From NCBI GenBank assembly GCA_964637965.1, contig CAZWXP010000108.1:22342-46341 (forward strand): a DNA stretch of 24,000 bases, read 5' to 3'. The position numbers were made by a program, and so were the translations under genes. The notes beneath the pieces were generated by a model. That model had not been told where the DNA came from. It did not search any database and saw nothing but the letters and a program-made list of their open reading frames with translations. This DNA comes from an uncultured Alphaproteobacteria bacterium. GTDB lineage: Bacteria; Pseudomonadota; Alphaproteobacteria; GCA-002720895. Position 1 is the stretch's first letter. Every line of letters begins with the position of its first letter. Below, piece after piece: positions 3,140 to 19,481 of the stretch.

Positions 3140-4429
3140 TTATTTGATTAATTTCTTTAAAATTAATAAATCAATTATAGGAATTAGTTTATGTGCTGAA
3201 ATTTTTAAAATATTTGCAATATCAATAATATCATTAGTGCCATCAGCATAAATTATAAAATCTAAAATAGTTTTTATTTGTCCTTTATTTTTTTTATAAA
3301 AATTTATATTAGAAATTTCATGATATAAATTTCTAGAACTTAGATGTGGTTCACATGTTGTAGTAGATTTATATTTTTTATTTTTTTCTAAAACATCAAT
3401 ACATTTTTTGTGAATTTCATAACTACCTTCTAAACCTTCTTCTGATACAAAATTCAAATTGTCCAATGAAGTGTGATATTCTCGATAAGTTCCGTATTTT
3501 GATCTCATAATTGATACCATTGGTAAATTTATTCCTGGACTGCAGTATTGTCTTTCATCGCTACCTCTATCTAAAAAGCTATAATATTTTTTTTTTGTTG
3601 TGTTATATTCAAGAATATTTTTTGCTAACTTATCTGCTATTGTGTTTCCATATTTAGATGGTAAAAAGGAAAATGTTTTATTGTCTCCTACACATGTAGC
3701 GTTAAATCCAGCTAAAACATTTCTTTTTAATTTATTTAAATTCTTAAATAGATATATTATTGAACCTATTGTTTCTGGAATAAAAACAAAACGGTATGTT
3801 AAATTTCTTTTTTTATTTAATAAAACATATTGAATAAGAGATATTAATAATGCTGTTCCTGATAATTCATTATTTGCCATCGATGGATGACAAATGTAAG
3901 TTGAAAAAAATATTTCGTTTTTCTTCTTTCCTGGAATAATGATTTCGCCATAATTAAATTTCCCATTTGTAAATTTAGAATCAATTTTAACATAGTAGTT
4001 GCCCTTCTTTTTTTTTAATTTCTTCATTTCATTCCAACTTAAAGAAAATCCCCAATTTTTTTTGTAATATGATGTTACGTAAGGAATGGCATTTGGTATT
4101 TTAGGCTCAGTGTGTAAATGTTTTTCTAACTCACTAAATGACATTTTTCTACTTACTGGCTCTGAATATGAAACCAAATGTAAATTATTATTTTTAAAAT
4201 CAATAATTTTTTTATTTTTTTCATCTTTTACGTAAGCATCTTTAATATTCCATTCCTGTGGCACCTTCCAATCAAAAACTTTTGTTCCGGACTTAACTGA
4301 ACAAATTCTTAAACTAGGTATTATTTTTTTTATATACTTAAGTGTTTGATACAAACCTTTACCACTTATACTTCTACAAATTGGAAAAAGATCGACAATC
4401 CAATTATACATTTGTTTACCTTTTCTCAT
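3140..4429 (-). CDS. Aminopeptidase-like (M28-like) protein of the DUF4910/DUF2172 family, with a probable C-terminal winged helix.
   Basis: 429-aa ORF. The N-terminus (LFPICRSISGKG...KVFDWKVPQEWNI...) matches my recollection of the aminopeptidase-like domain proteins that recur in polysaccharide loci. Family assignment is from memory. Confidence 0.55.
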   Translation of the reverse strand: MRKGKQMYNWIVDLFPICRSISGKGLYQTLKYIKKIIPSLRICSVKSGTKVFDWKVPQEWNIKDAYVKDEKNKKIIDFKNNNLHLVSYSEPVSRKMSFSELEKHLHTEPKIPNAIPYVTSYYKKNWGFSLSWNEMKKLKKKKGNYYVKIDSKFTNGKFNYGEIIIPGKKKNEIFFSTYICHPSMANNELSGTALLISLIQYVLLNKKRNLTYRFVFIPETIGSIIYLFKNLNKLKRNVLAGFNATCVGDNKTFSFLPSKYGNTIADKLAKNILEYNTTKKKYYSFLDRGSDERQYCSPGINLPMVSIMRSKYGTYREYHTSLDNLNFVSEEGLEGSYEIHKKCIDVLEKNKKYKSTTTCEPHLSSRNLYHEISNINFYKKNKGQIKTILDFIIYADGTNDIIDIANILKISAHKLIPIIDLLILKKLIK

Positions 4430-4433
4430 TTTC

Positions 4434-5072
4434 TTATTTTTTTTTTAATAAAAACATTGAATCAATTTCTTTATTGGAAATCAGGCTTTTAAAAAGGATT
4501 TCTTTTTGTATTTTAAGATCTGTGAAAGTAGATATAAATTTTTTTGAAAAATCAGTTTTCCATAACAAGTTTTTATGATTTCTATAGTTAACGTTTTCAT
4601 ATTTCTTAGAATAATATTCAAAACACCATATCCATTTAGATGTAACTCTATACATCTCGGACATGAAATGAGAAATATTGGATGGATGAATATGTATTAA
4701 AACATTGCTTGTAAAAACTAGATCAAAAAAATTCTTTTTAAATGGTATATTATTTCCATCACCTTGAACAAGATTAATAAATTTAAATTTTTTTTTTAAA
4801 TTTTTAATACATAAGCTTTGTAATTCAATACCATAAAGGTTTTTAAAACCCATTTTATTTAAACAATTTAATTGGTAACCAACATTACAGCCAATTTCTA
4901 AAATTCTTATTTTTCTATTAATTTTTTTTAAAAATAAATTATTTAATTCTAATTTTGTTTTTCCAAATCTTTCTTTATAATAATTATTCCAACTTTCAAA
5001 ATCTTTATGTAGATTTCTGTACATTTGGTCTGTTCCAAATTTTCCGTACCAGATCTTTCCTTGATTATCCAC
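4434..5072 (-). CDS. Class I SAM-dependent methyltransferase, similar to pseudaminic-acid-biosynthesis-associated methylases.
   Basis: 212 aa. SAM motif I is ILEIGCNVGYQL. The N-terminal IWYGKFGTDQMYRN resembles that family. The start codon is GTG (5072-5070), because the conserved N-terminus precedes the first internal ATG. Confidence 0.65.
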   Translation of the reverse strand: MDNQGKIWYGKFGTDQMYRNLHKDFESWNNYYKERFGKTKLELNNLFLKKINRKIRILEIGCNVGYQLNCLNKMGFKNLYGIELQSLCIKNLKKKFKFINLVQGDGNNIPFKKNFFDLVFTSNVLIHIHPSNISHFMSEMYRVTSKWIWCFEYYSKKYENVNYRNHKNLLWKTDFSKKFISTFTDLKIQKEILFKSLISNKEIDSMFLLKKK

Positions 5073-6991: not shown

Positions 6992-7531
6992 TTACTTATT
7001 TTTTTTAGAAAAATTTTTAGATAAAATTCCAAAAAATAATGAGTCATGCCATTTATTTTTAAAAAAATAGGTTTCTTTATGTCTTCCATCAAGTTGAAAT
7101 TTTAATTTTTTAAACATTTTGATTTTTTTTTTATCAAACTCATAAATTTCAGCCCATATTCTATGAAGATTTAGTACATTGAAACCATAATTCAATAAAA
7201 TATTGGCAGAATCTATGGCAAATTTTTCATCTATATAAATATTATTTTTTCCAATATAGATTGAGAAATCAGCATTTTTATTTATCCAATCTATATAACA
7301 AAGACCACAAGCGCCTATCAATTCATTTGTCTTATTTTCTATTATAGAAAACATATGCGTGGTATCTTTTTTTTTAACATACTCTTTGAACCACAAATTC
7401 TGATTATATATGTTAATTTCTCTATGCTCTCGGAAAAACTGTCTAAAGCTTGGTTTATTCCTCCAATTCATTAGAGATTTTAAATCTTTTTTTTCTATTG
7501 CTCTTAAAGAAGTAATATTGCCTTTTAACAT
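6992..7531 (-). CDS. pseH: GNAT N-acetyltransferase, PseH-like.
   Basis: 179 aa. The N-terminal LRAIEKKDLKSLMNWRNKP is typical of PseH-type GNATs. It lies between the PseI-like and PseB-like genes, 1 nt after the former. Confidence 0.55.
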   Translation of the reverse strand: MLKGNITSLRAIEKKDLKSLMNWRNKPSFRQFFREHREINIYNQNLWFKEYVKKKDTTHMFSIIENKTNELIGACGLCYIDWINKNADFSIYIGKNNIYIDEKFAIDSANILLNYGFNVLNLHRIWAEIYEFDKKKIKMFKKLKFQLDGRHKETYFFKNKWHDSLFFGILSKNFSKKNK

Positions 7532-7532: not shown

Positions 7533-8609
7533 TTATAAAATATCTGATAAAAAAATTTCCATTCCTTTTTTTTTATTTATTCTTAATTTTTTATTTAAAA
7601 TTTTTTTTAATTTACTTGGTGGTAAAGAATTTTTAGGTGCAGGTCTTAAAAATGTTAAATCATTAATTTTGATTATATTGCCTTTTAAAAGATTTTTATT
7701 TAATCTTATGCATCTTCTTTGTACAATTGCACTTTCTAGTTCATTTTTTTCAATAATTTTTTTTTCACTTCCTAATGAATCTTCTAATTCTCTTGCATTT
7801 TTAATCATCTCTTTCCAAGAATTAGGATTCATAGAGAAATAATGGTCTGGGCCTACTCTTGAATTATCATCAGTAAAATGTTTTTCAATAATTCTTGCTC
7901 CTAAAGAAATAGCGCCAAGAACTGTCGCATGTCCTTCAGTGTGATCTGACAGTCCTAATATGACATTCTTATATTTTTTTCTGAAAAGATTTAGCACTTT
8001 TAAATTAATATGTTTAAAATTATTTCTTTCATTTTTATAGTTTGTATTACATTGCATTAAACAAATTTTATCATTATTTGTATTAATTATTTTTACCGCA
8101 TTATCTACATCCTTTATATTAGAAGCTCCTGTTGCCAAAATTATAGGTTTATTTTTCTTTGAAACTGCCTGGATAAATTCTAACCAAGTAATATCTCCTG
8201 ATCCTATTTTATATACTGATGAAAATTTACTAACTTTTTTCAATGCATCAAAATCGTAAGGAGTTGTCATCCATTGAATATTAATTTTTTTTGTTAATTC
8301 AAATATTTTTTCATCCCAATTTCTATTAAATGAATATTTTTTATAAATCTCGTAGACAGAATTTTTCCACTTTGCTTGATGGCTCATTTTTTTACCCAAA
8401 TTTTTAAAACCATAATCGCTTACTATTTTTGGAGCTAGGAAATGTTGAAATTTAACTGCATCTGCGCCACACTCTTTTGCTAAATATACAAGCTTTTTTA
8501 CCCTATCAAATTTACCATCATGATTAGCTGCTATGTCAGCTATAAAATAGGATGGATTGCTTAAAGAAATTTTTCTTTTATTTATAAAAAATTCAGATTT
8601 AAATTTCAT
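7533..8609 (-). CDS. pseI: Nonulosonic acid synthase (NeuB family with a C-terminal SAF domain), probably a pseudaminic acid synthase.
   Basis: 358 aa. Motifs FIADIAANHDGKFDRVKKLVYLAKECGADAVKFQHF and LSDHTEGH. The C-terminal SAF-like tail is GNIIKINDLTFLRPAP...GMEIFLSDI. Confidence 0.7.
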   Translation of the reverse strand: MKFKSEFFINKRKISLSNPSYFIADIAANHDGKFDRVKKLVYLAKECGADAVKFQHFLAPKIVSDYGFKNLGKKMSHQAKWKNSVYEIYKKYSFNRNWDEKIFELTKKINIQWMTTPYDFDALKKVSKFSSVYKIGSGDITWLEFIQAVSKKNKPIILATGASNIKDVDNAVKIINTNNDKICLMQCNTNYKNERNNFKHINLKVLNLFRKKYKNVILGLSDHTEGHATVLGAISLGARIIEKHFTDDNSRVGPDHYFSMNPNSWKEMIKNARELEDSLGSEKKIIEKNELESAIVQRRCIRLNKNLLKGNIIKINDLTFLRPAPKNSLPPSKLKKILNKKLRINKKKGMEIFLSDIL

Positions 8610-8628: not shown

Positions 8629-10584
8629 TTAAAAGTTAATCCATCTAATATTTGAGTTATATTCTTTATTAAGATTAAAATGCTTTACAAATAACTGGTC
8701 TAATAACATTGTTGTTAATATTAAAAAAAAAGCTGTATCTTCTCTATAATTAATTTGATTTGGATTTTTTTTAGACAATATAGATAACAAATTTGAAACT
8801 TTTGATGATGTGAAATAACCAGTTTTATCTATCTGGTTTTTACTTAGTAATTCTTTTACATAATCAGGTAATTTTTTCTGAGAAAAAAAGGCAAGGCAGT
8901 TAGGGGCTATATAGGGTTGTTTTGCTCTATTAACAATTTCTAAAGGGATATCATTTTCAAAAGTTTTTTTTAATATCCATTTCTCTTTTAATCCCTTTAT
9001 AAAAAAAAGTTCATTAAAATCTGAAATAGATTCCCAAAGTTCGTGGTCTAGGAAAGGATATCTTCCTTCAACATGATTAGCTAAAGCTACTCTGTCGCCT
9101 TGAGAAGATAATAAATACCCCTCTAACAATGTTTTAACTTCCAAAAATCTTGCCTTTTGTAAGGAAGAAAAAGAAGAAAAGTTTGTGGGAAATAGATTCG
9201 AATTATTTGTTACATCAGCATTATTATAATAATCTTTTGACAAAAAAGTTCTCAATGAATCATTGTTCGACCATCGAACTATATGGGAAAAATCCATTTT
9301 TTTTTTATTTTTTAGAAATTTAGAAAAAAAATTTAGAATATATTTATAGTTTGTATCATTGAAGTTAGGTAAAAAATTATACAATTTTTTTAATAAAATA
9401 GGCCTCATCTCTGATTTTGGAAATTTTGACCAAAACAATCTTATTTTTAATTCCTTGAAAATATTATATCCAAAAAATGCTTCATCAGCTCCCTCTCCTG
9501 ATAAAACAACTTTTATATTTTGCTGATTTACAAAACTTGATAATAAATACATTGGAATTGGAGCGCTTCTAAATAAAGGATTTTCAGTAGAAAAAATAAC
9601 TTTAGGAAGAGTATCTGTAATATTTTTATATGAACAGTTGATATTGAAATGTTCTGTACCAAATTTCTTTGAAACTAAATTCTGATATTTTGATTCATCA
9701 AAATTTTTATCTTGAAAAGTAACAGAATAACTTTTGATTTTTTTTGTGTATCTTGATGCAATATTACATATTATTGAACTATCTATACCACCAGATAAGT
9801 ACAGTCCAATAGGAGCTTCTGATATTAATCTTTTTTTAACAGAATTATTTAATTCATTTCTTGTAATCTCAATTGCTTCTTTTTCATTTGTAATTTTTGG
9901 TTTTTTTCTTAGTGGAAAATCCCAAAACTTCTCAAATTTTTTTTTATTTCCTTTTATTGTTAGAGTGTGCGATGTCTCTAATTGACTAATGTTTTTAAAT
10001 ATTGTGTTAGGCGCATTGACTGTCCATTGTTTTATTAATTCATTTAGTGATGTTCTAGATATTTTTCTAGGCACAGAAGGAATGGAAAATAAAGATTTTA
10101 TTTCAGAAGCAAAATATAACCTTTTTTTATGGATAGTATAAAAAAGTGGTCTTATACCAAATCTATCTCTACCTAATATTAATTTATTGTTTTTAGTGTC
10201 ATATATTGCAAATGCAAAATTTCCATTAATATATTTTGGAGCATTTATCCCATATTCTTCATAAAGATGCACTAAAACTTCGGTGTCACAATTTGTTTTA
10301 AAATGATGACCTTTGTTTTGAAGATCTAATTTAATATCTAAATAATTATAAATTTCTCCATTATAGACAACCCAAATACTTTTATCTTCATTTGATATTG
10401 GTTGAAAACCATTTTTTATATCTATAATAGATAATCTTGCACATCCCATCATACAATTATCAAAACTTATTGCACCTAAACTATCTGGCCCTCTATGTTC
10501 AATTTGATGCAACATATTATTTAAATCTGATTTAATATTCTTTAAACCAGGTTTTAAATTAACCCAACCTGCAATTCCACACAT
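8629..10584 (-). CDS. Asparagine synthetase B-like glutamine-dependent amidotransferase.
   Basis: 651 aa. N-terminal nucleophile MCGIAGW (Ntn glutaminase) and PP-loop LSGGIDSS. The start codon directly abuts the stop of the carrier-protein gene (10585). Confidence 0.85.
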   Translation of the reverse strand: MCGIAGWVNLKPGLKNIKSDLNNMLHQIEHRGPDSLGAISFDNCMMGCARLSIIDIKNGFQPISNEDKSIWVVYNGEIYNYLDIKLDLQNKGHHFKTNCDTEVLVHLYEEYGINAPKYINGNFAFAIYDTKNNKLILGRDRFGIRPLFYTIHKKRLYFASEIKSLFSIPSVPRKISRTSLNELIKQWTVNAPNTIFKNISQLETSHTLTIKGNKKKFEKFWDFPLRKKPKITNEKEAIEITRNELNNSVKKRLISEAPIGLYLSGGIDSSIICNIASRYTKKIKSYSVTFQDKNFDESKYQNLVSKKFGTEHFNINCSYKNITDTLPKVIFSTENPLFRSAPIPMYLLSSFVNQQNIKVVLSGEGADEAFFGYNIFKELKIRLFWSKFPKSEMRPILLKKLYNFLPNFNDTNYKYILNFFSKFLKNKKKMDFSHIVRWSNNDSLRTFLSKDYYNNADVTNNSNLFPTNFSSFSSLQKARFLEVKTLLEGYLLSSQGDRVALANHVEGRYPFLDHELWESISDFNELFFIKGLKEKWILKKTFENDIPLEIVNRAKQPYIAPNCLAFFSQKKLPDYVKELLSKNQIDKTGYFTSSKVSNLLSILSKKNPNQINYREDTAFFLILTTMLLDQLFVKHFNLNKEYNSNIRWINF

Positions 10585-10854
10585 TTATTTAATTTTTTTT
10601 ATAATAATCTTGGAGATTCCTAATGGAGATGCTGATTCATCACTTAATAAATCATTTTCATTAAATGAAATCTTATATTTTTTCTCTAAATAGAGAATCA
10701 TGTCTATAATTGAAGCTGAATCGATGATTCCTTCACTAATTAGCAATGAATTCTTATTTAATTTACTAGGAATTACTGAATTATTTTTCTTGATATAATT
10801 AATAATCCCATTGCAAATATCATTTAGGCCTAGCTTTTTTTTTTTATTTTGCAA
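10585..10854 (-). CDS. Acyl/peptidyl carrier protein.
   Basis: 89 aa. The candidate phosphopantetheine site is EGIIDSASIIDMILYLE (DS motif in a helix-II-like context). The start codon is TTG (10854-10852), bounded by an in-frame TAA 12 nt upstream. It overlaps the upstream gene by 11 nt. Confidence 0.6.
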   Translation of the reverse strand: MQNKKKKLGLNDICNGIINYIKKNNSVIPSKLNKNSLLISEGIIDSASIIDMILYLEKKYKISFNENDLLSDESASPLGISKIIIKKIK

Positions 10855-11608
10855 AATATTTTTTTTTTATTACAAAAAAAGGATTTCTTTTTATATGTAA
10901 ATTGAATAAATCATAAAAACTCCTGAAATTAAACAATGACATTTGTCCCCAACCAATTTTAATTGAATTAATTAATTTTTCATTTTTTAATAACAAATTC
11001 ATTTTTTTGAAATCATATACTGTCTTCTTATTTAAGTATCTTGCATAGTAAGGTACTTTAATTGCTTTAATTTTATTAAATTTTTTTACTTTAATTTTAA
11101 ATGTTTTAAAAAATCTATAAGGAACTTTGTTCTCTTCTTCTATTTGATGAATTAAAGTAACATATTTTATTCCTACTCCAACTAAAAGACATTTAGCGTT
11201 CATATTTACAAGTTTCTTAAAAACACTGTTATCTCCAAAACTTGTAGGGCTGATGTTGTCAATTATTTCTTTTGCCCTATAACCTATTGCAACAACCGAA
11301 TGTAATGGGTGATTACTTCTTATCGCTTTTTTTTTCTTAATTAACCAATTTCCAAATGAGCCACTATCTGTAGAAATTTTTTCTTTATCAAAAATTTTTC
11401 CATGCGAGCATTCAAGTGTAAATGCTGGGGCTACTAAAGTACCTCTATTTCCTATAATTTCTTTTATACTTTTAAATAATAATTCTGAAGAATTTTTTTG
11501 TTTTCCAAAAATTAATCCTAAAGAAGAATGTGTGAATACTATATCGCTTTTTTTTAATCCTAAATGCCTTAGACATTCGATTAGCTTTTTTTGATCTATA
11601 CTTAACAA
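10844..11608 (-). CDS. AAC(3)-family (aminoglycoside N3-acetyltransferase-like) N-acyltransferase.
   Basis: 254 aa. The N-terminal LGLKKSDIVFTHSSLGLIFG and the later NHPLHSVVAIG resemble the Antibiotic_NAT fold family. The start codon is TTG (11608-11606), with an in-frame TAA immediately upstream. Confidence 0.55.
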   Translation of the reverse strand: MLSIDQKKLIECLRHLGLKKSDIVFTHSSLGLIFGKQKNSSELLFKSIKEIIGNRGTLVAPAFTLECSHGKIFDKEKISTDSGSFGNWLIKKKKAIRSNHPLHSVVAIGYRAKEIIDNISPTSFGDNSVFKKLVNMNAKCLLVGVGIKYVTLIHQIEEENKVPYRFFKTFKIKVKKFNKIKAIKVPYYARYLNKKTVYDFKKMNLLLKNEKLINSIKIGWGQMSLFNFRSFYDLFNLHIKRNPFFVIKKKYFAK

Positions 11609-11635
11609 TTATAAAATTTTAAAAGAGAGAGAAAA

Positions 11636-13108
11636 TTATTCTTTTTCTATTATAAAATTAGAAGGTATTTTACTTCTTTCTAATTTTTTAAAACAATAGC
11701 TTTTTAAACTGTTTAAACCTTGAAATTCTTTTTTGATTACTGCTATTGAGCATGTTATTTTATCTTTTTTATTTAAATATACCTTAGCTTTTTTAATGCC
11801 ATTAAAAGATTGAATAAAATTTTCTATTTCTTTTGGATCGAATTTTAACCCACCTTTGTTTATAATTCTAGATTCTCTTCCTGTAAGGAATAAATTATTA
11901 TTTTTATCTAAGAATCCTATATCATCAGTTACGAACCAGCCTTTATCAAAATATTTCCTATCTTCTTTTGCTCTGTTTAAATAAGTTTTCATTACATGAT
12001 TTCCTTTGATACATACTCTTCCTTTCTTCATAGAATTCAATTTTTTTTTATTTTTATCAGCAATTTTTACTTCAACATTTGGCATTGCTTTTCCAACACT
12101 GTTAAACAAATATTTCTTGGTTTTATTATTAAATTCAATAAAAGTAGATCTCGAAGCCTCTGTTAATCCGTAATAAACCATAATTCTCGTATTTGGAAAC
12201 TTGCTTACTAATTCTTTTAATAAACTTGGAGGAACAGGTTCAGAATTTATAATAATTAATTTTAAAAATTTTTTACACAATAAAAATTTTTTTGGGAATA
12301 TTTTTAATAAAATTTTAAAACCAGAGGGTGTTCCTGGAAAACCGTTTGGTTTTTTTTCAAACAAAGTTTTAAACAAAGAATTAAAATTAGAAAAACCAGG
12401 TAATAATTGTACTTTTCCTCCAACAAATAAATTGCAATAAATATGTCCTAGGCCAAAGTTATGGTAAATAGGTAAAGTTATTAATTCGTAAAATTTTTTA
12501 TTATAACCAACAAAAGATATAATGTTCTTAATTGCTGTTAAAACATTTTTATGTGTTAGAACAACACATTTTTTTTTTCCTGTTGATCCTGATGTAAACA
12601 TAAAAGATATTGGATCTTCTAAACCAATTTTAGGAAATTCATGAGTCATATAATTTTTATTGTTTATAATCAAATTCAAAATATAAGAATTTAATTTTTT
12701 ATTTTTTAATTTTTTATCAGATATAAGAATAATTTTATTTCTTATTAAAACGTTTTCTAAAAAATTTCTTTTTATAATTTCAACAAATGAAAAAATACAT
12801 TTTAATTTGGTTATTCTTATTATTTCACTTAAGTTGTTTGGCATTATTTCTGAACTTAATGGAACGCTTACAAAACCTGAAAAAACAATTGATAAGTGGG
12901 CTTTAACAAAATAATTACAATTTGGTAAAATAATCCCTATTGCATCTCCCTTCTTTAAATTTGTTTTGTTCATTAAAAAATGTGAAATTTTATTAATCTG
13001 TTTAATTAAAAAATCGTAACTTATATTTTCATTTGGGTCAGATAAAGCAATTTTTTTTGGGTTCTTATTTGCTGTGTTAATAATAGTTTCTGATAACGAA
13101 GAAATCAT
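11636..13108 (-). CDS. AMP-forming adenylating enzyme (ANL superfamily; acyl-CoA or carrier-protein ligase).
   Basis: 490 aa. Core motifs are FTSGSTGKKKCVVLTHKN (A3), YGLTEAS (A5), VTDDIGFLD (A7) and GRESRIINKGGLKFDPKEIE (A8). No recognisable A10 GK motif occurs before the stop. Confidence 0.85.
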   Translation of the reverse strand: MISSLSETIINTANKNPKKIALSDPNENISYDFLIKQINKISHFLMNKTNLKKGDAIGIILPNCNYFVKAHLSIVFSGFVSVPLSSEIMPNNLSEIIRITKLKCIFSFVEIIKRNFLENVLIRNKIILISDKKLKNKKLNSYILNLIINNKNYMTHEFPKIGLEDPISFMFTSGSTGKKKCVVLTHKNVLTAIKNIISFVGYNKKFYELITLPIYHNFGLGHIYCNLFVGGKVQLLPGFSNFNSLFKTLFEKKPNGFPGTPSGFKILLKIFPKKFLLCKKFLKLIIINSEPVPPSLLKELVSKFPNTRIMVYYGLTEASRSTFIEFNNKTKKYLFNSVGKAMPNVEVKIADKNKKKLNSMKKGRVCIKGNHVMKTYLNRAKEDRKYFDKGWFVTDDIGFLDKNNNLFLTGRESRIINKGGLKFDPKEIENFIQSFNGIKKAKVYLNKKDKITCSIAVIKKEFQGLNSLKSYCFKKLERSKIPSNFIIEKE

Positions 13109-13135: not shown

Positions 13136-13933
13136 TTATTCAGATGATACTAGAACTGTTCTTCCACCATCAACCAATAAATTTTGCCCTGTAATATAGC
13201 TCGATTGATCAGAAGATAAGAATTGTATAGCGCCAACTAATTCATTAGGATGACCCATTCTTCCTAGAGGAACCGTTTTTTCTAATCTTTGTTTGAAAGA
13301 TAATTTTAAAGCAGCGTCATCCATTGGGCCTGGGCATAAGGCATTACACCTTATATTATAATCACCTAACAGACTCGCGTAATATCTTGTAACACCAATT
13401 ATTGCATGCTTGGTTATTGAATAATGAACAGGTTTAATAAATTTTTTAAATAAACCCTTATAAAGTCTTTGGTTTGGAGCTATTAAAGATAAATCAGATC
13501 CAATATTAATAATGCTGCCATGCTTCTTCTTTTTCATATCTTTTGAGAAAGCTTCAATTAAATTAACCGCTCCTAATACACCGACATTAAATGACTTAAA
13601 AATTTCATCATCAATATTTCTTTTTAATTTACCTGGAACACTATCTAGTGCTGCATTATTAATCAGCACATCAATATAAACTTTTTTTTTTTCTAATGAT
13701 TTCTTAAATTGATTTACTGCTTTAATATCAGTGATATCCACAGTTTTAACAATAATTCTTCCTTCAGGAAATAGTTTTTTTAAAACATTATAATTTTTTA
13801 AATTTTTTTTTCCATTTACATCACACATAATCAAAAAGCCGTCTTTTTCTAAGATAGCCTTACCATGATATAAGCCTAATTTTCCGCCCGCTCCTGTTAC
13901 GAGACAAATCTTATTTTTTAAATCATTAAACAT
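13136..13933 (-). CDS. Short-chain dehydrogenase/reductase (classical SDR).
   Basis: 265 aa. Motifs CLVTGAGGKLG, NNAA and YSITKHAIIG (YxxxK). The C-terminal YITGQNLLVDGG is typical of SDRs. Confidence 0.8.
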   Translation of the reverse strand: MFNDLKNKICLVTGAGGKLGLYHGKAILEKDGFLIMCDVNGKKNLKNYNVLKKLFPEGRIIVKTVDITDIKAVNQFKKSLEKKKVYIDVLINNAALDSVPGKLKRNIDDEIFKSFNVGVLGAVNLIEAFSKDMKKKKHGSIINIGSDLSLIAPNQRLYKGLFKKFIKPVHYSITKHAIIGVTRYYASLLGDYNIRCNALCPGPMDDAALKLSFKQRLEKTVPLGRMGHPNELVGAIQFLSSDQSSYITGQNLLVDGGRTVLVSSE

Positions 13934-14756
13934 TTTTTATTATTTTTTTTATAAAATAAAAATTTTTTCTTAATTCATCAACATGTTTGTTTTTTGATCT
14001 AGCAGTTTGTAAGATTATATTTCCTTTATATTCTTTTTTTAGATATTTAAAAACTTTTTCAAAATCTTGATTTCCTTTTCCTAAAGGTACTGTTGTTCCA
14101 AAGCACAAACGATCTTTTATATGTACATTCTGAACATATTTTATATAAATTTTTTCTTTATTAAAATCATAATTTTTAGAAGCGCTATTACCTGTATCGT
14201 AGTTTATTCCTATATTCTTTAATTTAAATCTTTTTATAAATTTTAATAATTTTTTAGGGTTATAATCACTTTCAAAAAGAATTCTAATATTTGTTGATTT
14301 TATTAAAGGCAAAAAAAAATTAATCAATCCTACAATGGTATTCTCATCCTTTTTTGTTTTTAAAGATGTATTATCCACTAAAGGTAAAACTATATATTTT
14401 ATATTCAAAATTAAACAAGAATTTATTAAAAAAAGTATTTTCTTTTTTATTTCAATTTGATTTTTTTTATTTTGTTTAAAGTATGGCTTTTCCATAAAAA
14501 AATCACATGTGACAGACTCTATCCTAATATTGTTTTTTTCTGATAAGTTCTTAATTTTCTCAAAATATTTTGAATTCAATAAAGGATTCTTATAAAAATT
14601 CTTATTATCTAATGTCCACTCAATTAATTTAAGTCTTAGTTTTTTAGCTAAATGAAATTCTTTTTGCCAACTTTTCCATGGAAAAGATTGTATTTTATTT
14701 TTGATCTCAGGTGGAACAAGCCTACCTTGCATTACACCAAAATTAAATTTATTCAT
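13926..14756 (-). CDS. Xylose-isomerase-like TIM-barrel protein (sugar phosphate isomerase/epimerase family).
   Basis: 276 aa. The overall pattern (GVMQGRL...IEW...ESVTCDFF...LFES...NYDTGN...VHIKD) resembles AP-endonuclease-2/xylose-isomerase-like barrels. Judged by eye only. Confidence 0.45.
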   Translation of the reverse strand: MNKFNFGVMQGRLVPPEIKNKIQSFPWKSWQKEFHLAKKLRLKLIEWTLDNKNFYKNPLLNSKYFEKIKNLSEKNNIRIESVTCDFFMEKPYFKQNKKNQIEIKKKILFLINSCLILNIKYIVLPLVDNTSLKTKKDENTIVGLINFFLPLIKSTNIRILFESDYNPKKLLKFIKRFKLKNIGINYDTGNSASKNYDFNKEKIYIKYVQNVHIKDRLCFGTTVPLGKGNQDFEKVFKYLKKEYKGNIILQTARSKNKHVDELRKNFYFIKKIIKNV

Positions 14757-14761
14757 TCTTA

Positions 14762-15841
14762 TTATACTTTATTTCTCATTTTTCGAGTTCTATCAAAGAT
14801 CTGAGTTTTCAAAATACTAAACTTATTTTCTTTGATATAATCTGATATTGGCTTATATCTATCACATTTAACACAAACTTTAGGTAAGATACCTTTTTTC
14901 CAATTAGATCTGAATTTTTTTATTTTTTTTCCTCTCCAAATGTTAGTTAAAGTGTCGGAATTAATATTTCCTATATTTATTTCTCCTTCTATATCTCTCG
15001 ATGCACATACTCCTACGTTTCCATCTGACATGATATATAATTTTCTATATAGCTCCCAACAAGGTTCTTTAAATTTTTTTTCATTTGGAACTATTTCTCC
15101 CAATGTTGACCCTTTTGGTAAATCCTTCTCTGTAATATAACCACTCCAATTTTCATAGGCAGTTTTGAAAGACATATTTTCAAAACCTATTAACTTACCA
15201 ATTTCTAAAAAATCTTTATTTTTTCTCCATTTTTCTTCAGGTTGTTCAACTCTTAAATGCATAGTGAAATGAATAGGTTTATTATATTTAATATTTAATT
15301 TTGCAATATTAATTATATTTTTGATAACTCTTTGATATTCATCAACTCCATAATATTTTTTATATAATTTTCTAGTTCCAAAATAAGTGGATATTGCTAT
15401 TCGTGTCACACCGCTTTGAACTAATTCTTTTAAATTATAACGATCTAAATAAATAGCATTAGTGTACATAAAGACACTGTGTATATTTTTTTTAGACCTT
15501 GCGTATCTTATTTTCTCAATTAAAGATTTATCAACTAATGGGTCACCAACCACTGGTGTAAAAGAAACTGTACCTCCACCATCTTTTGAATACAAATCAA
15601 TTGTTTTTTTAAACATTTTAAAATCCATGATATATAATGATCTTTTTTGAAATCTATACGCACAAAAAGAACAATTAGCATTACAAGCATTGGATATTTC
15701 TAAACCTAAGTCTGTATAATTTTTCTCCATTAGTTTAAGCAAAAAAGAGTTTGGAAAAAAACTAAGAAAAAAATTTTTTATTTTTTTCTTTAGAAGTTTT
15801 TTTAAATATTTTTTATGATCTACAAAACGAATTTCTTCCAT
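14762..15841 (-). CDS. Radical SAM enzyme with a Cys-rich C-terminal (SPASM/twitch-like) region.
   Basis: 359 aa. CX3CX2C motif is CNANCSFC. C-terminal cysteines occur in CWELY...GNVGVCASRD and CVKCDRY. Its ATG shares 1 nt with the upstream stop (TAATG). Confidence 0.8.
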   Translation of the reverse strand: MEEIRFVDHKKYLKKLLKKKIKNFFLSFFPNSFLLKLMEKNYTDLGLEISNACNANCSFCAYRFQKRSLYIMDFKMFKKTIDLYSKDGGGTVSFTPVVGDPLVDKSLIEKIRYARSKKNIHSVFMYTNAIYLDRYNLKELVQSGVTRIAISTYFGTRKLYKKYYGVDEYQRVIKNIINIAKLNIKYNKPIHFTMHLRVEQPEEKWRKNKDFLEIGKLIGFENMSFKTAYENWSGYITEKDLPKGSTLGEIVPNEKKFKEPCWELYRKLYIMSDGNVGVCASRDIEGEINIGNINSDTLTNIWRGKKIKKFRSNWKKGILPKVCVKCDRYKPISDYIKENKFSILKTQIFDRTRKMRNKV

Positions 15842-16542
15842 TATAACCCCTTAGCAATCCATCCTCCATCAACTACAATATCTTCGCCTGTAATATATGA
15901 TGAGTCCTGTGATATGAGAAACTTTATTACTCCAACTATATCGGTAGTTTTACCCCATCTTTGAAGTATTGTTCTATTTGATCTTTCTTTATATTTTTTT
16001 TTGTTTTTATAAGAATTAATTGTCATGTCAGTTAAGATATATCCTGGAGAAACTGAATTAACTCTTATTTGATATTTCCTATAATCTAATGCCATAGATT
16101 TAGTTAACATTCTCAAACCTCCTTTTGATGCAACATATCCAGGATTTTCAGGAAATGCCTGGTAAGCATTTATGCTACAAATATTAATAATAGATTTAAT
16201 TTCTGATTTTTTAATCTTATCCAAAAAAGAGTCAGATACAATATATGGAATTTTTAAATTAAAATCTATTATCTTAGAAAAATTTTTTATTTTAGATTTA
16301 TATTTTGTTCTCGCAATCCCAGCGTTGTTTATCAAAACATCTAACTTTGGAATCTTTTTACTTAATAATTTTAGATTATTTTGTTTACTAATATCTAACG
16401 CAAAATAATTAAAATTATTTATTTTAATTTTTGATCTTCCAACTCCATAAACTTGAAAGTTTTTAAATTTAGATAAATTTTCGCAAATTTCTCTACCAAT
16501 ACCTTTAGAGGCTCCTGTAACTAAAACGTACTTTTTTTCCAT
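15841..16542 (-). CDS. Short-chain dehydrogenase/reductase (FabG/PtmA-like).
   Basis: 233 aa. Motifs VLVTGASKGIGREI, NNAG and YVASKGGLRMLTK. The C-terminal YITGEDIVVDGG is typical of SDRs. Confidence 0.85.
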   Translation of the reverse strand: MEKKYVLVTGASKGIGREICENLSKFKNFQVYGVGRSKIKINNFNYFALDISKQNNLKLLSKKIPKLDVLINNAGIARTKYKSKIKNFSKIIDFNLKIPYIVSDSFLDKIKKSEIKSIINICSINAYQAFPENPGYVASKGGLRMLTKSMALDYRKYQIRVNSVSPGYILTDMTINSYKNKKKYKERSNRTILQRWGKTTDIVGVIKFLISQDSSYITGEDIVVDGGWIAKGL

Positions 16543-16555
16543 ATTATTTTGAAAA

Positions 16556-17296
16556 TCATCTTTCTAAAATTAACCTAACTAAATCTAAATCAAACTTTTC
16601 ATCAATTTCAAGAGATTTTTTTTTATCTACAATATAGGGTAAAGTTTTTCCTCCAAAAAAATAGTTGTTTTCACTATTTATAATGAATTTTTTTTTAGTT
16701 AAAAAAATATTTCCGCTTAATTTATATATATTTGGAAAAATATCTTGTCTTCTAACAAATTTTTTTACTTTTTTCATAGGTAATAAGAATTTATTTCTAA
16801 TTTTATTTAAATACATATCACTACATTCATTTGCTTCTCTTACACTTACAACGCTATCAACTTTTTTTTTCATCATCTTTATACATTTAATAATATCGTT
16901 TGCATTTGTTAATGGATTGGTGGCTTGTAAAAGCATTACCAAATCAACTTTAAATTTTTCATTATCTTCAATAAATTTTATAGCATGCTTTAAAACTGGC
17001 AATGTTGGTGCTGTGTCAGTAGCTAAATGTTTAGGTCTTAAAAATGGAACTTCTGCTCCAAATTTTTTTGCAATCTTTGCAATTTTTAATGAATCTGTTG
17101 AAACTAATAAAGTTATGGAAGCTATATCATTCCCTCTTGATATAGTTTCTTTATAAAAAAATTTTTTAGCTTTTAAAGCTGCTTCAATACAATAAGCAAT
17201 TAGTGGTTTACCATTAATATTTATTATGTTTTTATTACGAACCTCTTTTGACCCAGCTCTTGCTGGAATCACGATTAAAATATTCTTTTTTTTCAT
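16556..17296 (-). CDS. CMP-nonulosonate/acylneuraminate cytidylyltransferase family protein.
   Basis: 246 aa. The N-terminal IPARAGSKEVRNKNI is typical of NeuA/PseF/LegF-type cytidylyltransferases. It abuts the NeuB-like gene with a 0-nt gap. Confidence 0.8.
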   Translation of the reverse strand: MKKKNILIVIPARAGSKEVRNKNIININGKPLIAYCIEAALKAKKFFYKETISRGNDIASITLLVSTDSLKIAKIAKKFGAEVPFLRPKHLATDTAPTLPVLKHAIKFIEDNEKFKVDLVMLLQATNPLTNANDIIKCIKMMKKKVDSVVSVREANECSDMYLNKIRNKFLLPMKKVKKFVRRQDIFPNIYKLSGNIFLTKKKFIINSENNYFFGGKTLPYIVDKKKSLEIDEKFDLDLVRLILER

Positions 17297-18139
17297 TTAT
17301 TTAATATTAAGATGTGCTCTTAATTTTTTTGCAACTTCTAACTCTTTTTTATTATAAATTAAATTTCCCTCTCCTAATGAACTCGATATGGCCAAAACTC
17401 CATCAACTAGCTTTTTAAAACCATGAGGCTCAATCGACGCTGCTTGATCTGAACCATACATAGCTCTATCTAGAGTAATATGTCTCTCTAAAGATGTTAT
17501 TCCCATTGCGCATGCTGCAAAGGAAACAGTTAAGCCGACTTCGTGCCCGCTATATCCTACATTGCATTTAAATATTTTTTTTAATCTTGTAATTCTATTC
17601 AAATTTGCATCTTCATCTGCCATTGGATAAGTTGAGATACAATGCATTAATTCAAATGGACATTTAAATTTCTTAAAAATTCTTACAGCATTGTCTATAT
17701 CTTTTTTTTTTGACATTCCAGTTGAAATAAATGTATATTTGTTTTCTTTAGCTACCGCTTCTAATAAAGGTTTATATATAATCATTGCTGAAGCAATTTT
17801 ATTATATTTAAATTTAAATTGTTTTAAAAATTTTTGACTTTCTAAATCCCAAGCTGAAGCAAACCAATCTATTTTTAATTTTTTACAATACTTATTTATT
17901 TCTTGATAATCTTTTTTATCAAATTCCAACCCTTCTTTTTGTTTTCGAAAAGTTGTTCCCCAAGGACTTTCTCTATTAGAATTTAATTCCTCTTTAGAAT
18001 AAACTAAATCTATGGTTCTTTTTTGAAATTTTACTGCATCGGCGCCAGCTTTTTTTGCACAATCTATTAACTTTTTAGCAATTTTTAAATCACCGTTATG
18101 ATTAATTCCTATTTCTGCTATAACTTTTATTTTTTTCAT
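17297..18139 (-). CDS. NeuB-family PEP-condensing synthase, TIM-barrel domain only (no SAF domain).
   Basis: 280 aa. Motifs IAEIGINHNGDLKIAKKLIDCAKKAGADAVKFQKR and GYSGHEVG. The ORF ends about 70 aa short of full-length NeuB/PseI, and the next gene starts at the adjacent nucleotide. Confidence 0.75.
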   Translation of the reverse strand: MKKIKVIAEIGINHNGDLKIAKKLIDCAKKAGADAVKFQKRTIDLVYSKEELNSNRESPWGTTFRKQKEGLEFDKKDYQEINKYCKKLKIDWFASAWDLESQKFLKQFKFKYNKIASAMIIYKPLLEAVAKENKYTFISTGMSKKKDIDNAVRIFKKFKCPFELMHCISTYPMADEDANLNRITRLKKIFKCNVGYSGHEVGLTVSFAACAMGITSLERHITLDRAMYGSDQAASIEPHGFKKLVDGVLAISSSLGEGNLIYNKKELEVAKKLRAHLNIK

Positions 18140-19473: not shown

Positions 19474-19481
19474 TTAATTTT

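What the first reader, a model, noticed from the sequence alone, without database searches (positions are those of the whole stretch)
8629..13108. Carrier-protein-dependent acylation/amidation cassette embedded in a nonulosonic-acid locus (ANL ligase, AAC(3)-like transferase, carrier protein, AsnB-like amidotransferase)
Four consecutive, overlapping or abutting genes encode the following. An adenylating enzyme. An AAC(3)-fold N-acyltransferase, a family normally annotated as aminoglycoside resistance. An 89-aa carrier protein with a DS phosphopantetheinylation-like site. A glutamine-dependent AsnB-like amidotransferase. Together they look like a self-contained route. A carboxylic or amino acid would be activated and tethered to the carrier protein. 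It would then be transferred to a sugar amino group, and a carboxylate would be amidated. There is precedent for ligase-plus-ACP cassettes that build unusual N-acyl groups on amino sugars. As I recall, the tetronate genes of the Vibrio cholerae O1 O-antigen locus are one example. I do not know of a characterised system that pairs an AAC(3)-fold enzyme with a carrier protein. The predicted product would be an unusually N-acylated or amidated pseudaminic/legionaminic-type sugar.
Basis: inference. Interest (0 to 1): 0.7.

Follow-up and report, generated by a model that had tools for sequence, protein, structure and literature searches.

The report
Carrier-protein N-acylation cassette for pseudaminic-type sugars
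Four adjacent genes in a marine bacterium's surface-sugar locus belong to a widespread but biochemically untested module, in which an enzyme with the fold of an antibiotic-resistance acetyltransferase probably takes an unusual acyl group from a small carrier protein and attaches it to a sialic-acid-like sugar.

Summary
Window 8629-13108 (minus strand) encodes an ANL ligase, an Antibiotic_NAT/AAC(3)-fold protein, an 89-aa carrier protein and a glutamine-dependent AsnB-type amidotransferase. They are tightly packed inside a pseudaminic-acid-type locus.

Comparative evidence supports the core interpretation.
- In 40 distinct lineages of this NAT clade, the gene sits beside a small carrier, an ANL ligase or FkbH loader, and a DUF4910 protein.
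- Natural fusions exist: carrier-NAT, NAT-FkbH, and one AMP-binding/PP-binding/Antibiotic_NAT protein.

It is the family of Campylobacter jejuni Cj1295, which is required for the 2,3-di-O-methylglyceroyl N-acyl form of pseudaminic acid. The same DUF4910/AAC(3)-like/ACP neighbourhood was catalogued in 2014, but without a mechanism. I found no biochemical characterisation.

The AsnB gene is not a general component. It occurs in three marine lineages, always as NAT-carrier-AsnB, and its substrate is unknown.

Caveats:
- The window's ligase lacks the A10 lysine.
- The carrier misses Pfam's cut-off.
- Nothing here is experimentally shown.

Verdict: a real new variant of a known kind, of moderate to high interest.

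The parts
11636..13108 (-). ANL-superfamily acyl-activating enzyme (490 aa). It is the acyl/aryl-CoA-ligase type rather than an NRPS amino-acid type, and the presumed loader of the carrier protein.
   Evidence: Pfam AMP-binding 3.2e-63. The closest PDB hits are 4-coumarate- and oxalate-CoA ligases at 1e-31. The sequence shows the motifs SGSTGKKK, YGLTEA and GRxxxxINKGGxKxxPxEIE, and 'LPIYHNFG' where NRPS A domains have FDxS. Caveat: it ends before the A10 PxxxxGK motif.
10844..11608 (-). Antibiotic_NAT / AAC(3)-fold transferase (254 aa), the proposed acyl-carrier-protein:aminosugar N-acyltransferase.
   Evidence: Pfam PF02522 5.5e-32. AF2 pLDDT 95.5. Foldseek TM about 0.83 to YokD, FrbF, BA2930 and AAC(3). 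His154/Glu157 align with BA2930 His183/Glu186 and are invariant in 48 homologues. Scores are far below all resistance AAC(3) cut-offs. Carrier and ligase fusions occur in homologues.
10585..10854 (-). 89-aa carrier protein with the conserved motif EGIIDS(46).
   Evidence: NCBIfam ACP models 8.9e-6 to 4e-4. The orthologue profile hits only carrier proteins in the PDB, best 3.8e-6, with DS aligned on the modified Ser. The AF2 single-sequence model has four helices, with helix II starting at Ser46, but pLDDT is only 58.7. Pfam PP-binding is below cut-off.
8629..10584 (-). Glutamine-hydrolysing AsnB-type amidotransferase (651 aa), a lineage-specific accessory of the cassette.
   Evidence: GATase_7 plus Asn_synthase. 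N-terminal MCGIAG nucleophile and SGGIDSS PP-loop are in the sequence. TIGR01536 scores 477 bits. The closest solved structures are the 7ylz hydroxyamidotransferase and 1ct9 AsnB. The order NAT-carrier-AsnB is conserved in three lineages at 51-52% AsnB identity.
3140..4429 (-). DUF4910/DUF2172/HTH_47 protein (Cj1295 / CA_C2195 family).
   Evidence: Pfam DUF4910 4e-99. PDB 3k9t (CA_C2195) 3.7e-107. It is found within 8 kb of NAT in 17 of 20 lineages with enough flank. Cj1295 is needed for the di-O-methylglyceroyl-Pse glycoform (PMC3068675).
4434..8609 (-). Pseudaminic-acid-type context genes: Pse-associated methylase (4434-5072), RmlD-like reductase (5077-5949), PseB (5954-6985), PseH-like GNAT (6992-7531) and NeuB-family synthase (7533-8609).
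   Evidence: NCBIfam PseB 458.6 bits against cut-off 407.75, and TIGR03587 154.8 against 112. PseH-like 58.9 bits and NeuB/PseI-like.
13136..18139 (-). Upstream genes of the same tightly packed operon: SDR, xylose-isomerase-like TIM barrel, radical SAM/SPASM, SDR, PseF-like cytidylyltransferase and a second, short NeuB.
   Evidence: Pfam and NCBIfam. Overlapping or abutting coordinates.

Best explanation
The ligase, AAC(3)-fold protein and 89-aa protein, together with the DUF4910 gene 6 kb downstream, form one instance of a widespread module. The module replaces or supplements the ordinary N-acetyl group of a pseudaminic/legionaminic-type sugar with a different acyl group.

Proposed mechanism (all steps inferred):
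1. The ANL enzyme adenylates a non-amino carboxylic acid and thioesterifies it to the phosphopantetheine arm of the carrier protein.
2. In this lineage, the AsnB-type enzyme uses glutamine and ATP to turn a free carboxylate into a carboxamide. The target is most simply a second carboxylate of the tethered acyl group.
3. The AAC(3)-fold enzyme uses its conserved His154/Glu157 pair. It accepts the acyl-S-pantetheinyl carrier in place of acetyl-CoA and transfers the acyl group to an amino group of the nucleotide-linked sugar.
4. The DUF4910 protein either exposes that amine or assists the transfer.

Shown here: gene content, folds, catalytic-residue conservation, conserved neighbourhoods and domain fusions.

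Inferred: every chemical step, the identity of the acid, the acceptor amine and the product.
For: Conserved neighbourhood:
- There are 40 NAT lineages (<70% identity) from metagenomes and genomes. Among the 20 with at least 4 kb of flank, 16 have a carrier, 15 an ANL ligase or FkbH loader, 17 a DUF4910 and 10 a NeuB.
- Independent Pfam-annotated contexts agree. One is a flagellin-Maf glycosylation island (L078). Another is a stand-alone ligase-carrier-NAT trio (L074).

Fusions:
- L038 is a single 1010-aa protein with AMP-binding, PP-binding (34.3 bits) and Antibiotic_NAT domains. This is NRPS-like A-T logic with NAT in the place of a condensation domain.
- L013 and L019 are carrier-NAT fusions.
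- Several NAT-FkbH/HAD fusions exist.

Enzyme features:
- NAT keeps the AAC(3) catalytic His/Glu and the fold.
- CoA and holo-carrier proteins share the same pantetheine thioester (established knowledge).
- A separate PseH-like GNAT for ordinary acetylation is present in the window.

Genetics elsewhere:
- Cj1295 (DUF4910) is required for N5-(2,3-di-O-methylglyceroyl)-Pse (PMC3068675; PMC7099621).
- Its neighbours include AAC(3)-like proteins, an ACP and the FkbH-domain gene cj1302 (PMC4000134 supplement).

AsnB: NAT-carrier-AsnB is conserved, with 0-10 nt spacing, in three lineages whose other gene orders differ. The catalytic Cys2 and PP-loop are intact.
Against: - No experiment supports any step.
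- The window carrier fails Pfam's PP-binding cut-off. Its single-sequence structure model is of low confidence and Foldseek matches are non-significant.
- The window ligase and its 76% homologue lack the A10 lysine normally needed for adenylation.
- No phosphopantetheinyl transferase, PseC or PseG gene lies in the window.
- In FkbH-type clusters a ligase is still present next to NAT, so the ligase's role may not simply be loading the carrier.
- DUF4910 lacks canonical peptidase catalytic residues according to PMC4000134, so a de-N-acetylase role is unproven.
- AsnB is absent from most lineages, and close-scoring AsnB homologues occur in unrelated contexts.
- The locus survey was seeded with a motif of this NAT clade and used home-made HMMs, so the percentages are approximate.
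Confidence: 0.62

Rival explanations
1. The AAC(3)-fold protein is an ordinary acetyl-CoA-dependent sugar N-acetyltransferase, a PseH/LegH substitute like FrbF acting on a CMP- or NDP-linked amine. The ligase and carrier serve another reaction in the locus, such as O-acylation or making a lipid or acid side chain that a different enzyme attaches.
For: All characterised members of the fold (AAC(3)s, FrbF, BA2930) use acetyl-CoA (PMC8956665; PDB titles). The catalytic residues are the same. PMC4000134 labels these neighbours 'aminosugar N-acetyltransferase'.
Against: Covalent fusions of the carrier, and of ligase plus carrier, to the NAT domain are hard to explain otherwise. The adjacency is tight and recurrent, including a trio with no other sugar genes. 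The window already has a PseH-like GNAT. No alternative acyltransferase for the carrier-bound group is present in the minimal cassettes (L011, L018, L074, L075).
Confidence: 0.15
2. The module works as proposed for ligase, carrier and NAT. The AsnB-type enzyme, however, acts on the sugar itself or on the finished glycan. It might amidate the C1 carboxylate of the nonulosonic acid or another uronic carboxylate, or help make an amidine. It would not act on the carrier-tethered acyl group.
For: AsnB homologues of 640-670 aa at 42-46% identity are abundant. At least one sits in a context without carrier or NAT. L078 has an Asn_synthase gene beside NeuB, away from the NAT-carrier pair. AsnB-type uronamide synthases are known from O-antigen loci (own knowledge, not checked here).
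Against: In all three lineages that have the 51-52%-identity AsnB, it directly follows the carrier gene with 0-10 nt spacing although other gene orders differ. AsnB homologues acting on thioester-bound dicarboxylates are known (OxyD; own knowledge, not checked here).
Confidence: 0.2
3. The four genes are an aminoglycoside-resistance gene and a housekeeping asparagine synthetase that happen to lie beside unrelated fatty-acid-type genes.
For: Public annotation names the homologues 'AAC(3) family N-acetyltransferase' and 'asparagine synthase (glutamine-hydrolyzing)'. TIGR01536 is passed.
Against: NAT scores 83.6 bits or less against AAC(3) resistance models whose cut-offs are 270-675. Its closest structural relatives are the non-resistance members YokD, FrbF and BA2930. 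The neighbourhood is conserved across phyla and fusions exist. The operon is tightly packed inside a Pse locus.
Confidence: 0.03

Closest known systems
Campylobacter jejuni NCTC 11168 flagellin-glycosylation genes cj1295-cj1304 (2,3-di-O-methylglyceroyl-pseudaminic acid)
   Same: A DUF4910 protein (Cj1295), AAC(3)-like 'N-acetyltransferases', small ACPs, a methyltransferase and an acyl loader sit beside Pse genes. Cj1295 is genetically required for a non-acetyl N-acyl Pse (PMC3068675; PMC4000134 supplement; PMC7099621).
   Different: The C. jejuni loader is an FkbH-domain protein (cj1302), and no AsnB gene was reported in the papers read here (the C. jejuni locus itself was not examined). The window uses an ANL ligase and adds an AsnB amidotransferase, so it must make a different acyl group. 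The roles of the AAC(3)-like and ACP genes have not been tested in C. jejuni either. I could not fetch the C. jejuni sequences for a direct comparison.
Clostridium acetobutylicum CA_C2195-CA_C2199 neighbourhood (DUF4910 structure 3k9t; Das et al. 2014)
   Same: The window DUF4910 matches 3k9t at 3.7e-107. That paper lists an aminoglycoside N3-acetyltransferase homologue, acpA and an acetyltransferase-HAD fusion next to it, and proposes a role in modified carbohydrate synthesis.
   Different: The paper proposes no carrier-dependent acyl transfer and does not list an AsnB or ANL ligase as core. It is purely bioinformatic.
FrbF, YokD, BA2930 and AAC(3) enzymes (Antibiotic_NAT fold)
   Same: Same fold (TM about 0.83) and the same His/Glu catalytic pair. 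FrbF acetylates the amine of a CMP-linked intermediate (own knowledge of Bae et al. 2011, cited in PMC8956665), a substrate class like CMP-nonulosonic acids.
   Different: All of these use acetyl-CoA as free cofactor. None is encoded with, or fused to, a carrier protein as far as I know. Sequence identity is only 15-22%.
Carrier-protein-dependent N-acylation of amino sugars: butirosin BtrI/BtrJ/BtrH and the Vibrio cholerae O1 tetronate genes (wbeK-O)
   Same: The logic is the same: an acid is activated, held on a small ACP and delivered to a sugar amine. wbeL is a tetronate gene with an ATP-binding domain (PMC3441752).
   Different: To my knowledge the transferases there are not Antibiotic_NAT-fold enzymes. 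This rests on memory and was not tested here.
NRPS A-T-C initiation/condensation logic and DltA/DltC
   Same: There is an adenylating enzyme plus a stand-alone carrier. The L038 fusion shows the domain order A-T-NAT.
   Different: The amide-forming catalyst is an AAC(3)-fold domain, not a condensation domain or MBOAT. The window ligase is the acyl-CoA-ligase type.
AsnB-family tailoring amidotransferases (TsnB9 hydroxyamidotransferase 7ylz; OxyD malonamate starter-unit enzyme)
   Same: 7ylz is the best solved-structure match (5.7e-52). The window protein has an intact Cys2 glutaminase and PP-loop.
   Different: Substrate unknown. The OxyD analogy is from memory.

Membership tests
Antibiotic_NAT (PF02522) / AAC(3) fold | Pfam model above the gathering score | tested here: met
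   111.6 bits against cut-off 25, E=5.5e-32.
Antibiotic_NAT (PF02522) / AAC(3) fold | TTHA0583/YokD-like alpha/beta fold | tested here: met
   AF2 pLDDT 95.5. Foldseek TM 0.79-0.84 and E about 1e-20 to YokD, FrbF, BA2930 and AAC(3).
Antibiotic_NAT (PF02522) / AAC(3) fold | Catalytic His-x-x-Glu pair | tested here: met
   His154/Glu157 align to BA2930 His183/Glu186. They are invariant in 48 homologues.
Aminoglycoside-resistance AAC(3) (NCBIfam equivalogs) | Score above the curated cut-off of any AAC(3) resistance model | tested here: not met
   The best is NF033082 at 83.6 bits against cut-off 270. The others score 59 or less against 420-675.
Antibiotic_NAT (PF02522) / AAC(3) fold | Acyl donor is acetyl-CoA | not testable with these tools
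   Needs enzyme assays. Genomic evidence (fusions) argues for an acyl-carrier donor instead.
Acyl/peptidyl carrier protein (PP-binding) | Pfam PF00550 above the gathering score | tested here: not met
   14.2 bits against cut-off 20.8. However, the orthologous gene in L075 is PP-binding-positive, as are positional equivalents in L014, L073 and L074.
Acyl/peptidyl carrier protein (PP-binding) | Conserved Asp-Ser with Ser at the N-terminus of helix II | tested here: met
   D45 and S46 are invariant in six orthologues. They align to the DSL serine of AcpM and PfACP. Helix II starts at residue 46 in the model.
Acyl/peptidyl carrier protein (PP-binding) | Four-helix carrier fold | tested here: inconclusive
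   The single-sequence AF2 model has four helices but pLDDT 58.7. Foldseek top hits are all ACPs, but with E>=0.1 and TM about 0.35.
Acyl/peptidyl carrier protein (PP-binding) | Phosphopantetheinylation of the serine | not testable with these tools
   Needs Sfp/AcpS assay and mass spectrometry.
ANL adenylate-forming enzymes | AMP-binding domain with core motifs A3, A5, A7 and A8 | tested here: met
   PF00501 at 214 bits. The motifs are visible in the sequence and the alignment.
ANL adenylate-forming enzymes | A10 motif lysine (PxxxxGK) of the C-terminal domain | tested here: not met
   The protein, and its 76% homologue in L011, end about 20 residues early. Most cassette ligases keep NKTGK or NxxGK.
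Class II glutamine amidotransferase / asparagine synthetase B family | N-terminal Cys nucleophile, GATase domain, PP-loop synthetase domain | tested here: met
   MCGIAG and SGGIDSS are in the sequence. GATase_7 plus Asn_synthase. TIGR01536 scores 477 against 267.
Class II glutamine amidotransferase / asparagine synthetase B family | Aspartate as the acceptor (true asparagine synthetase) | not tested
   The context argues against it: conserved NAT-carrier-AsnB order and best structural relative 7ylz, a tailoring enzyme. The substrate pocket was not analysed.
XrtA/PEP-CTERM system amidotransferase (TIGR03108) | Score above the curated cut-off | tested here: not met
   381.6 bits against cut-off 816.9.
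DUF4910-AAC(3)-like-ACP nonulosonic-acid modification neighbourhood (Cj1295 / CA_C2195 type) | DUF4910/DUF2172/HTH_47 protein in the same locus | tested here: met
   Window 3140-4429: DUF4910 4e-99 and 3k9t 3.7e-107.
DUF4910-AAC(3)-like-ACP nonulosonic-acid modification neighbourhood (Cj1295 / CA_C2195 type) | AAC(3)-like gene next to a small carrier and an acyl loader (ANL or FkbH) | tested here: met
   Window genes. The same pattern is seen in 40 lineages.
DUF4910-AAC(3)-like-ACP nonulosonic-acid modification neighbourhood (Cj1295 / CA_C2195 type) | Nonulosonic-acid synthase, cytidylyltransferase and Pse/Leg genes nearby | tested here: met
   PseB equivalog, two NeuB genes, PseF-like and Pse-associated methylase.
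DUF4910-AAC(3)-like-ACP nonulosonic-acid modification neighbourhood (Cj1295 / CA_C2195 type) | Product carries a non-acetyl N-acyl group | not testable with these tools
   Needs glycan or CMP-sugar mass spectrometry/NMR.

The most novel reading that the evidence does not exclude
One clade of the Antibiotic_NAT/AAC(3) fold would be a widespread family of acyl-carrier-protein-dependent N-acyltransferases. These enzymes would be the missing ones that install the non-acetyl N-acyl groups of pseudaminic and legionaminic acids (di-O-methylglyceroyl, glyceroyl, and here an amide-bearing acyl group). They would work with DUF4910 proteins and interchangeable loaders (ANL, FkbH, LuxE), and would act as the condensation catalyst in a compact NRPS-like A-T-NAT assembly line. 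The window would encode a new branch of this family, in which an AsnB-type enzyme amidates the carrier-bound acyl group before transfer.
Probability: 0.45. Interest if true: 0.75.

Novelty: new variant of a known kind. Interest (0 to 1): 0.6.

Why it matters
Nonulosonic acids on flagella, capsules and S-layers carry many different N-acyl groups that shape immune recognition, phage binding and surface charge. The enzymes that install them are largely unknown; a 2017 Tannerella forsythia paper (PMC5378307) calls knowledge of NulO-modifying enzymes 'scarce'.

If this clade of the AAC(3) fold takes its acyl group from a carrier protein, four things follow.
- It assigns a function to genes now annotated as aminoglycoside-resistance enzymes in hundreds of environmental and pathogen genomes, removing false 'resistome' calls.
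- It explains the genes around cj1295 in Campylobacter.
- It adds a new catalyst type to carrier-protein biochemistry.
- It offers a modular toolkit (loader plus carrier plus NAT) for making sialic-acid analogues.

The hypothesis can be tested directly with four small soluble proteins.

Tried and rejected
- Resistance-gene reading: rejected. NCBIfam AAC(3) scores are far below cut-offs, and the closest structures are non-resistance members.
- Housekeeping AsnB: rejected on the conserved carrier-AsnB adjacency, although TIGR01536 is passed.
- Genome-contig scan with a 4-sequence alignment: it used very narrow patterns and returned only 3 loci. Those were informative, but the cap then stopped me from fetching C. 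jejuni or C. acetobutylicum genomes for direct comparison. The link to Cj1296-1299 and CA_C2197-2199 therefore rests on PMC4000134's supplement.
- Single-sequence AF2 of the carrier: a poor model (pLDDT 58.7) with non-significant Foldseek matches. Orthologues from loci could not be supplied to the predictor.
- Literature searches for a characterised AAC(3)-fold/carrier pair, for Cj1296-1302 biochemistry and for FkbH/glyceroyl-Pse enzymology: none found. The library lacks most subscription journals, so absence is not proof.
- Organism identification: only the sample source was found, Tara station 125, 0.22-0.45 and 0.22-3 µm fractions. Taxon unresolved; GC is 22-23%.
- V. cholerae tetronate precedent: I confirmed only that wbeL is a tetronate gene with an ATP-binding domain. 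The fold of its acyltransferase was not checked.
- Identity of the activated acid: I did not attempt to predict it beyond noting that the ligase is the acyl-CoA-ligase type.

Full report
**Observation**

The window has 22-23% GC, and every substantial ORF but one partial gene at its right end (23335-24000, plus strand) lies on the minus strand.
- ANL ligase, 11636-13108, 490 aa: Pfam AMP-binding 3.2e-63.
- Antibiotic_NAT protein, 10844-11608, 254 aa: 5.5e-32.
- An 89-aa ORF, 10585-10854.
- AsnB-type protein, 8629-10584, 651 aa: GATase_7 3.8e-43 plus Asn_synthase 1.5e-74.

The genes are packed as described. There is a 27-nt gap, then an 11-nt overlap, then no gap.

The setting is a pseudaminic-acid-type locus.
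- PseB equivalog above its curated cut-off (458.6 against 407.75).
- A 'pseudaminic acid biosynthesis-associated methylase' above cut-off (154.8 against 112).
- A PseH-like GNAT, two NeuB-family synthases and a PseF-like cytidylyltransferase.

The operon is headed by an RfaH/UpxY-like antiterminator and ends at a partial ABC exporter. No PseC or PseG gene lies in the window.

**The 89-aa protein**

This was the weakest element.
- Pfam PP-binding scores only 14.2 bits, below the cut-off of 20.8.
- Several NCBIfam ACP models match at 8.9e-6 to 4e-4.
- Six orthologues from related loci share an invariant Asp45-Ser46.
- A profile of these orthologues finds 34 PDB sequences, all acyl, peptidyl or D-alanyl carrier proteins. 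The best is 3.8e-6, and DS aligns on the modified serine.
- The orthologous gene in locus L075 is PP-binding-positive in precomputed Pfam.
- A single-sequence AlphaFold model shows four helices with helix II starting at Ser46. It is of low confidence (pLDDT 58.7). Its Foldseek matches are all ACPs but are not significant.

I accept it as a carrier protein on sequence-profile and positional evidence. The fold test is inconclusive.

**The AAC(3)-like protein**

- With 48 homologues, AlphaFold gives pLDDT 95.5.
- The model superposes on YokD, FrbF, BA2930 and AAC(3) enzymes at TM about 0.83.
- His154 and Glu157 align with BA2930 His183 and Glu186. They are invariant across the homologues.
- It is not a resistance enzyme by NCBI's criteria: 83.6 bits or less against cut-offs of 270-675.

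**Co-occurrence**

Homologues are common in metagenomes and are uniformly annotated 'AAC(3) family N-acetyltransferase'. I collected 3 genome loci, 56 metagenome loci and several Pfam-annotated contigs. I searched all their ORFs with HMMs built from the window and first-hit proteins.

After collapsing NAT proteins at 70% identity there are 40 lineages. Among the 20 with at least 4 kb of nearby flank:
- 16 have a small carrier within 3 kb;
- 15 have an ANL ligase or an FkbH-type loader;
- 17 have a DUF4910 protein within 8 kb;
- 10 have a NeuB;
- 2 have an AsnB.

Independent, precomputed Pfam neighbourhoods agree.
- KSB1 MAG (L013).
- Roseateles and Paucibacter (L014; L015 by the HMM survey).
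- Marine contigs (L001, L006, L011, L072, L075).
- A flagellin-Maf glycosylation island (L078).
- A capsule-type locus (L079).
- L073.
- A Helicobacter-like contig where ligase, 74-aa PP-binding protein and NAT stand alone among housekeeping genes (L074).

The survey was seeded with a motif of this clade ([PY]YRF[FY]K[ET]F) and uses home-made HMMs, so the fractions are approximate.

**Fusions**

The strongest evidence is covalent.
- L038 encodes one 1010-aa protein with AMP-binding (residues 170-519), PP-binding (684-747, 34.3 bits) and Antibiotic_NAT (788-930) domains, joined by poly-Asn linkers. This is an NRPS-like A-T arrangement with the AAC(3) fold where a condensation domain would be.
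- L013 and L019 encode carrier-NAT fusions with a GWDS-type serine motif.
- L050 may carry a C-terminal carrier.
- L022, L024, L025, L026 and L029 fuse NAT to an FkbH/HAD loader.
- P0077 fuses a MaoC dehydratase to NAT.

Such fusions are hard to reconcile with a free acetyl-CoA-dependent acetyltransferase that merely happens to lie nearby.

**The missed partner**

The most constant neighbour is the DUF4910/DUF2172/HTH_47 protein. It matches the solved CA_C2195 structure 3k9t at 3.7e-107.

- This is the family of C. jejuni Cj1295. Loss of Cj1295 removes the N5-(2,3-di-O-methylglyceroyl) pseudaminic acid glycoform (PMC3068675; PMC7099621).
- Das et al. 2014 (PMC4000134) described the neighbourhood of this family as including an 'aminosugar N-acetyltransferase', acpA and an acetyltransferase-HAD fusion.
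- Their supplement groups the following into one neighbour cluster: aminoglycoside N3-acetyltransferase homologues from C. acetobutylicum, C. jejuni (next to an ACP), Nitrosoarchaeum and cyanobacteria, plus 822-830-aa FkbH fusions.
- cj1302 is an FkbH-domain gene.

The association is therefore already catalogued, and in one pathogen it is tied to a non-acetyl N-acyl group. I found no paper that proposes or tests carrier-dependent transfer by the AAC(3)-like protein. The searchable library is incomplete.

**The AsnB gene**

It has the Cys2 nucleophile (MCGIAG) and the SGGIDSS PP-loop, so it should adenylate a carboxylate and amidate it with glutamine-derived ammonia.

Only two other lineages have a close relative (51-52% identity): L001/L016 and L075/L076. 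In all three, the order NAT-carrier-AsnB is kept with 0-10 nt between carrier and AsnB. The positions of the ligase and DUF4910 differ.
- Window: ligase-NAT-carrier-AsnB, with DUF4910 further downstream.
- L001: DUF4910 upstream of NAT-carrier-AsnB-rSAM-ligase.
- L075: NAT-carrier-AsnB-ligase-DUF4910.

The next tier of homologues (42-46%) is a huge generic family. At least one of them is in an unrelated context. Sister NAT lineages (L017, L018, L036) have NAT-carrier-ligase-DUF4910 without AsnB. The closest solved structure is the tailoring hydroxyamidotransferase 7ylz.

AsnB is therefore a lineage-specific add-on linked to the carrier. Its substrate is unknown. It could be a second carboxylate on the tethered acyl group, the attached side chain, or a sugar carboxylate.

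**The ligase**

It resembles 4-coumarate- and oxalate-CoA ligases. It has 'LPIYHNFG' where amino-acid-activating domains have the Asp-bearing motif, so a non-amino carboxylic acid is likely (inference).

Unexpectedly, it and its 76% homologue end before the A10 PxxxxGK motif, whereas most cassette ligases keep that lysine. I cannot explain this. It may reduce adenylation, or another lysine near the C-terminus may substitute.

In the FkbH-type superclusters a ligase still abuts NAT, and there are two carriers. The ligase may therefore reload a released acid onto a NAT-specific carrier, rather than being the only loader.

**Mechanism and confidence**

The best-supported reading has four steps.
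1. The ligase loads an acid on the carrier.
2. AsnB amidates a carboxylate, in this lineage only.
3. The AAC(3)-fold enzyme transfers the acyl group from the carrier's pantetheine thioester to a sugar amine, using the conserved His/Glu.
4. DUF4910 exposes or presents the amine.

Confidence is about 0.6 for the carrier-dependent N-acyl transfer. It is lower, about 0.35, for AsnB acting on the tethered group. All chemistry is inferred.

Rivals:
- An acetyl-CoA-only NAT with an unrelated ligase and carrier (0.15).
- AsnB acting on the sugar rather than the tethered acyl group (0.2; compatible with the main model otherwise).
- Coincidental resistance and housekeeping genes (0.03).

**Novelty and verdict**

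Carrier-protein-dependent N-acylation of amino sugars is a known kind of system. The gene neighbourhood itself has been listed before. Three things are new here:
- explicit evidence, from fusions and a survey, that the AAC(3) fold is the carrier-linked transferase;
- the ANL-loaded form;
- the AsnB-containing variant.

I rate it a new variant of a known kind, with interest 0.6. It is directly testable with small soluble proteins. It bears on an acknowledged gap in nonulosonic-acid biology (PMC5378307). It also bears on the mis-annotation of these genes as aminoglycoside-resistance determinants.

Noticed in passing
window 11636-13108 (and L011:185-1678): The ANL ligase ends about 20 residues before the A10 PxxxxGK motif, so the canonical adenylation lysine is missing. 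A 76%-identical homologue ends at the same place. L041's ligase is also truncated, whereas most ligases of this cassette keep NKTGK/NxxGK.
   Followed up: partly
L038:599-3631: A single 1010-aa ORF combines AMP-binding, PP-binding and Antibiotic_NAT domains, joined by long poly-Asn linkers. It also has an unassigned 160-aa N-terminal region. The DNA is extremely AT-rich and the host is unknown.
   Followed up: partly
L022:8396-10999, L024, L025:1858-4341, L026, L029; P0077: The NAT domain is fused to an FkbH/HAD loader (about 830-870 aa) in several lineages. In P0077 it is fused to a MaoC dehydratase. This shows modular shuffling of the acyl-supply enzymes around NAT.
   Followed up: partly
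L074:8202-10786: A ligase, a 74-aa PP-binding protein and NAT form a three-gene unit among ribosomal and housekeeping genes in a Helicobacter-like contig (HP_1247_M domain neighbour). It is far from any nonulosonic-acid gene. The NAT cluster has 167 member sequences.
   Followed up: no
window 7533-8609 and 17297-18139: There are two NeuB-family synthases in one operon, of 358 aa and a short 280 aa, but only one PseF-like cytidylyltransferase (16556-17296). No PseC or PseG gene is in the window.
   Followed up: no
window 13136-16542 and 18145-22010: The glycan operon contains unusual tailoring genes. They are two radical SAM/SPASM enzymes (14762-15841, 20958-22010), a xylose-isomerase-like TIM barrel (13926-14756), two SDRs, a glucose/sorbosone-dehydrogenase-like beta-propeller (18145-19473) and a 490-aa protein with no family (19482-20954).
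   Followed up: no
window 22079-23244: An RfaH/UpxY-like NusG paralogue (95 bits to RfaH and 83 to UpxY, both below cut-off) and a winged-helix protein sit at the head of the operon. This suggests dedicated antitermination of the roughly 22-kb transcript.
   Followed up: no
L001:4518-6347 and L072:5056-6861: A NodU/CmcH-type carbamoyltransferase lies directly upstream of, and overlapping, the NAT gene in two lineages. B12-binding radical SAM enzymes are nearby. This hints at still other modifications in the sister cassettes.
   Followed up: no
L078:7790-8080 and L079:11019-11309: FkbH-type superclusters carry two carriers. One is a PP-binding protein after the FkbH gene. The other is a 96-aa 'IDSLD' protein with no Pfam hit, next to NAT or the SDR. 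This suggests one carrier for building the acid and another for delivery.
   Followed up: partly
window 1564-3135 and 3-1532: A 523-aa protein with no Pfam or NCBIfam match follows the DUF4910 gene and may be the glycosyltransferase or polymerase. A partial ABC exporter (Walker A and LSGGQ motifs) ends the operon.
   Followed up: no
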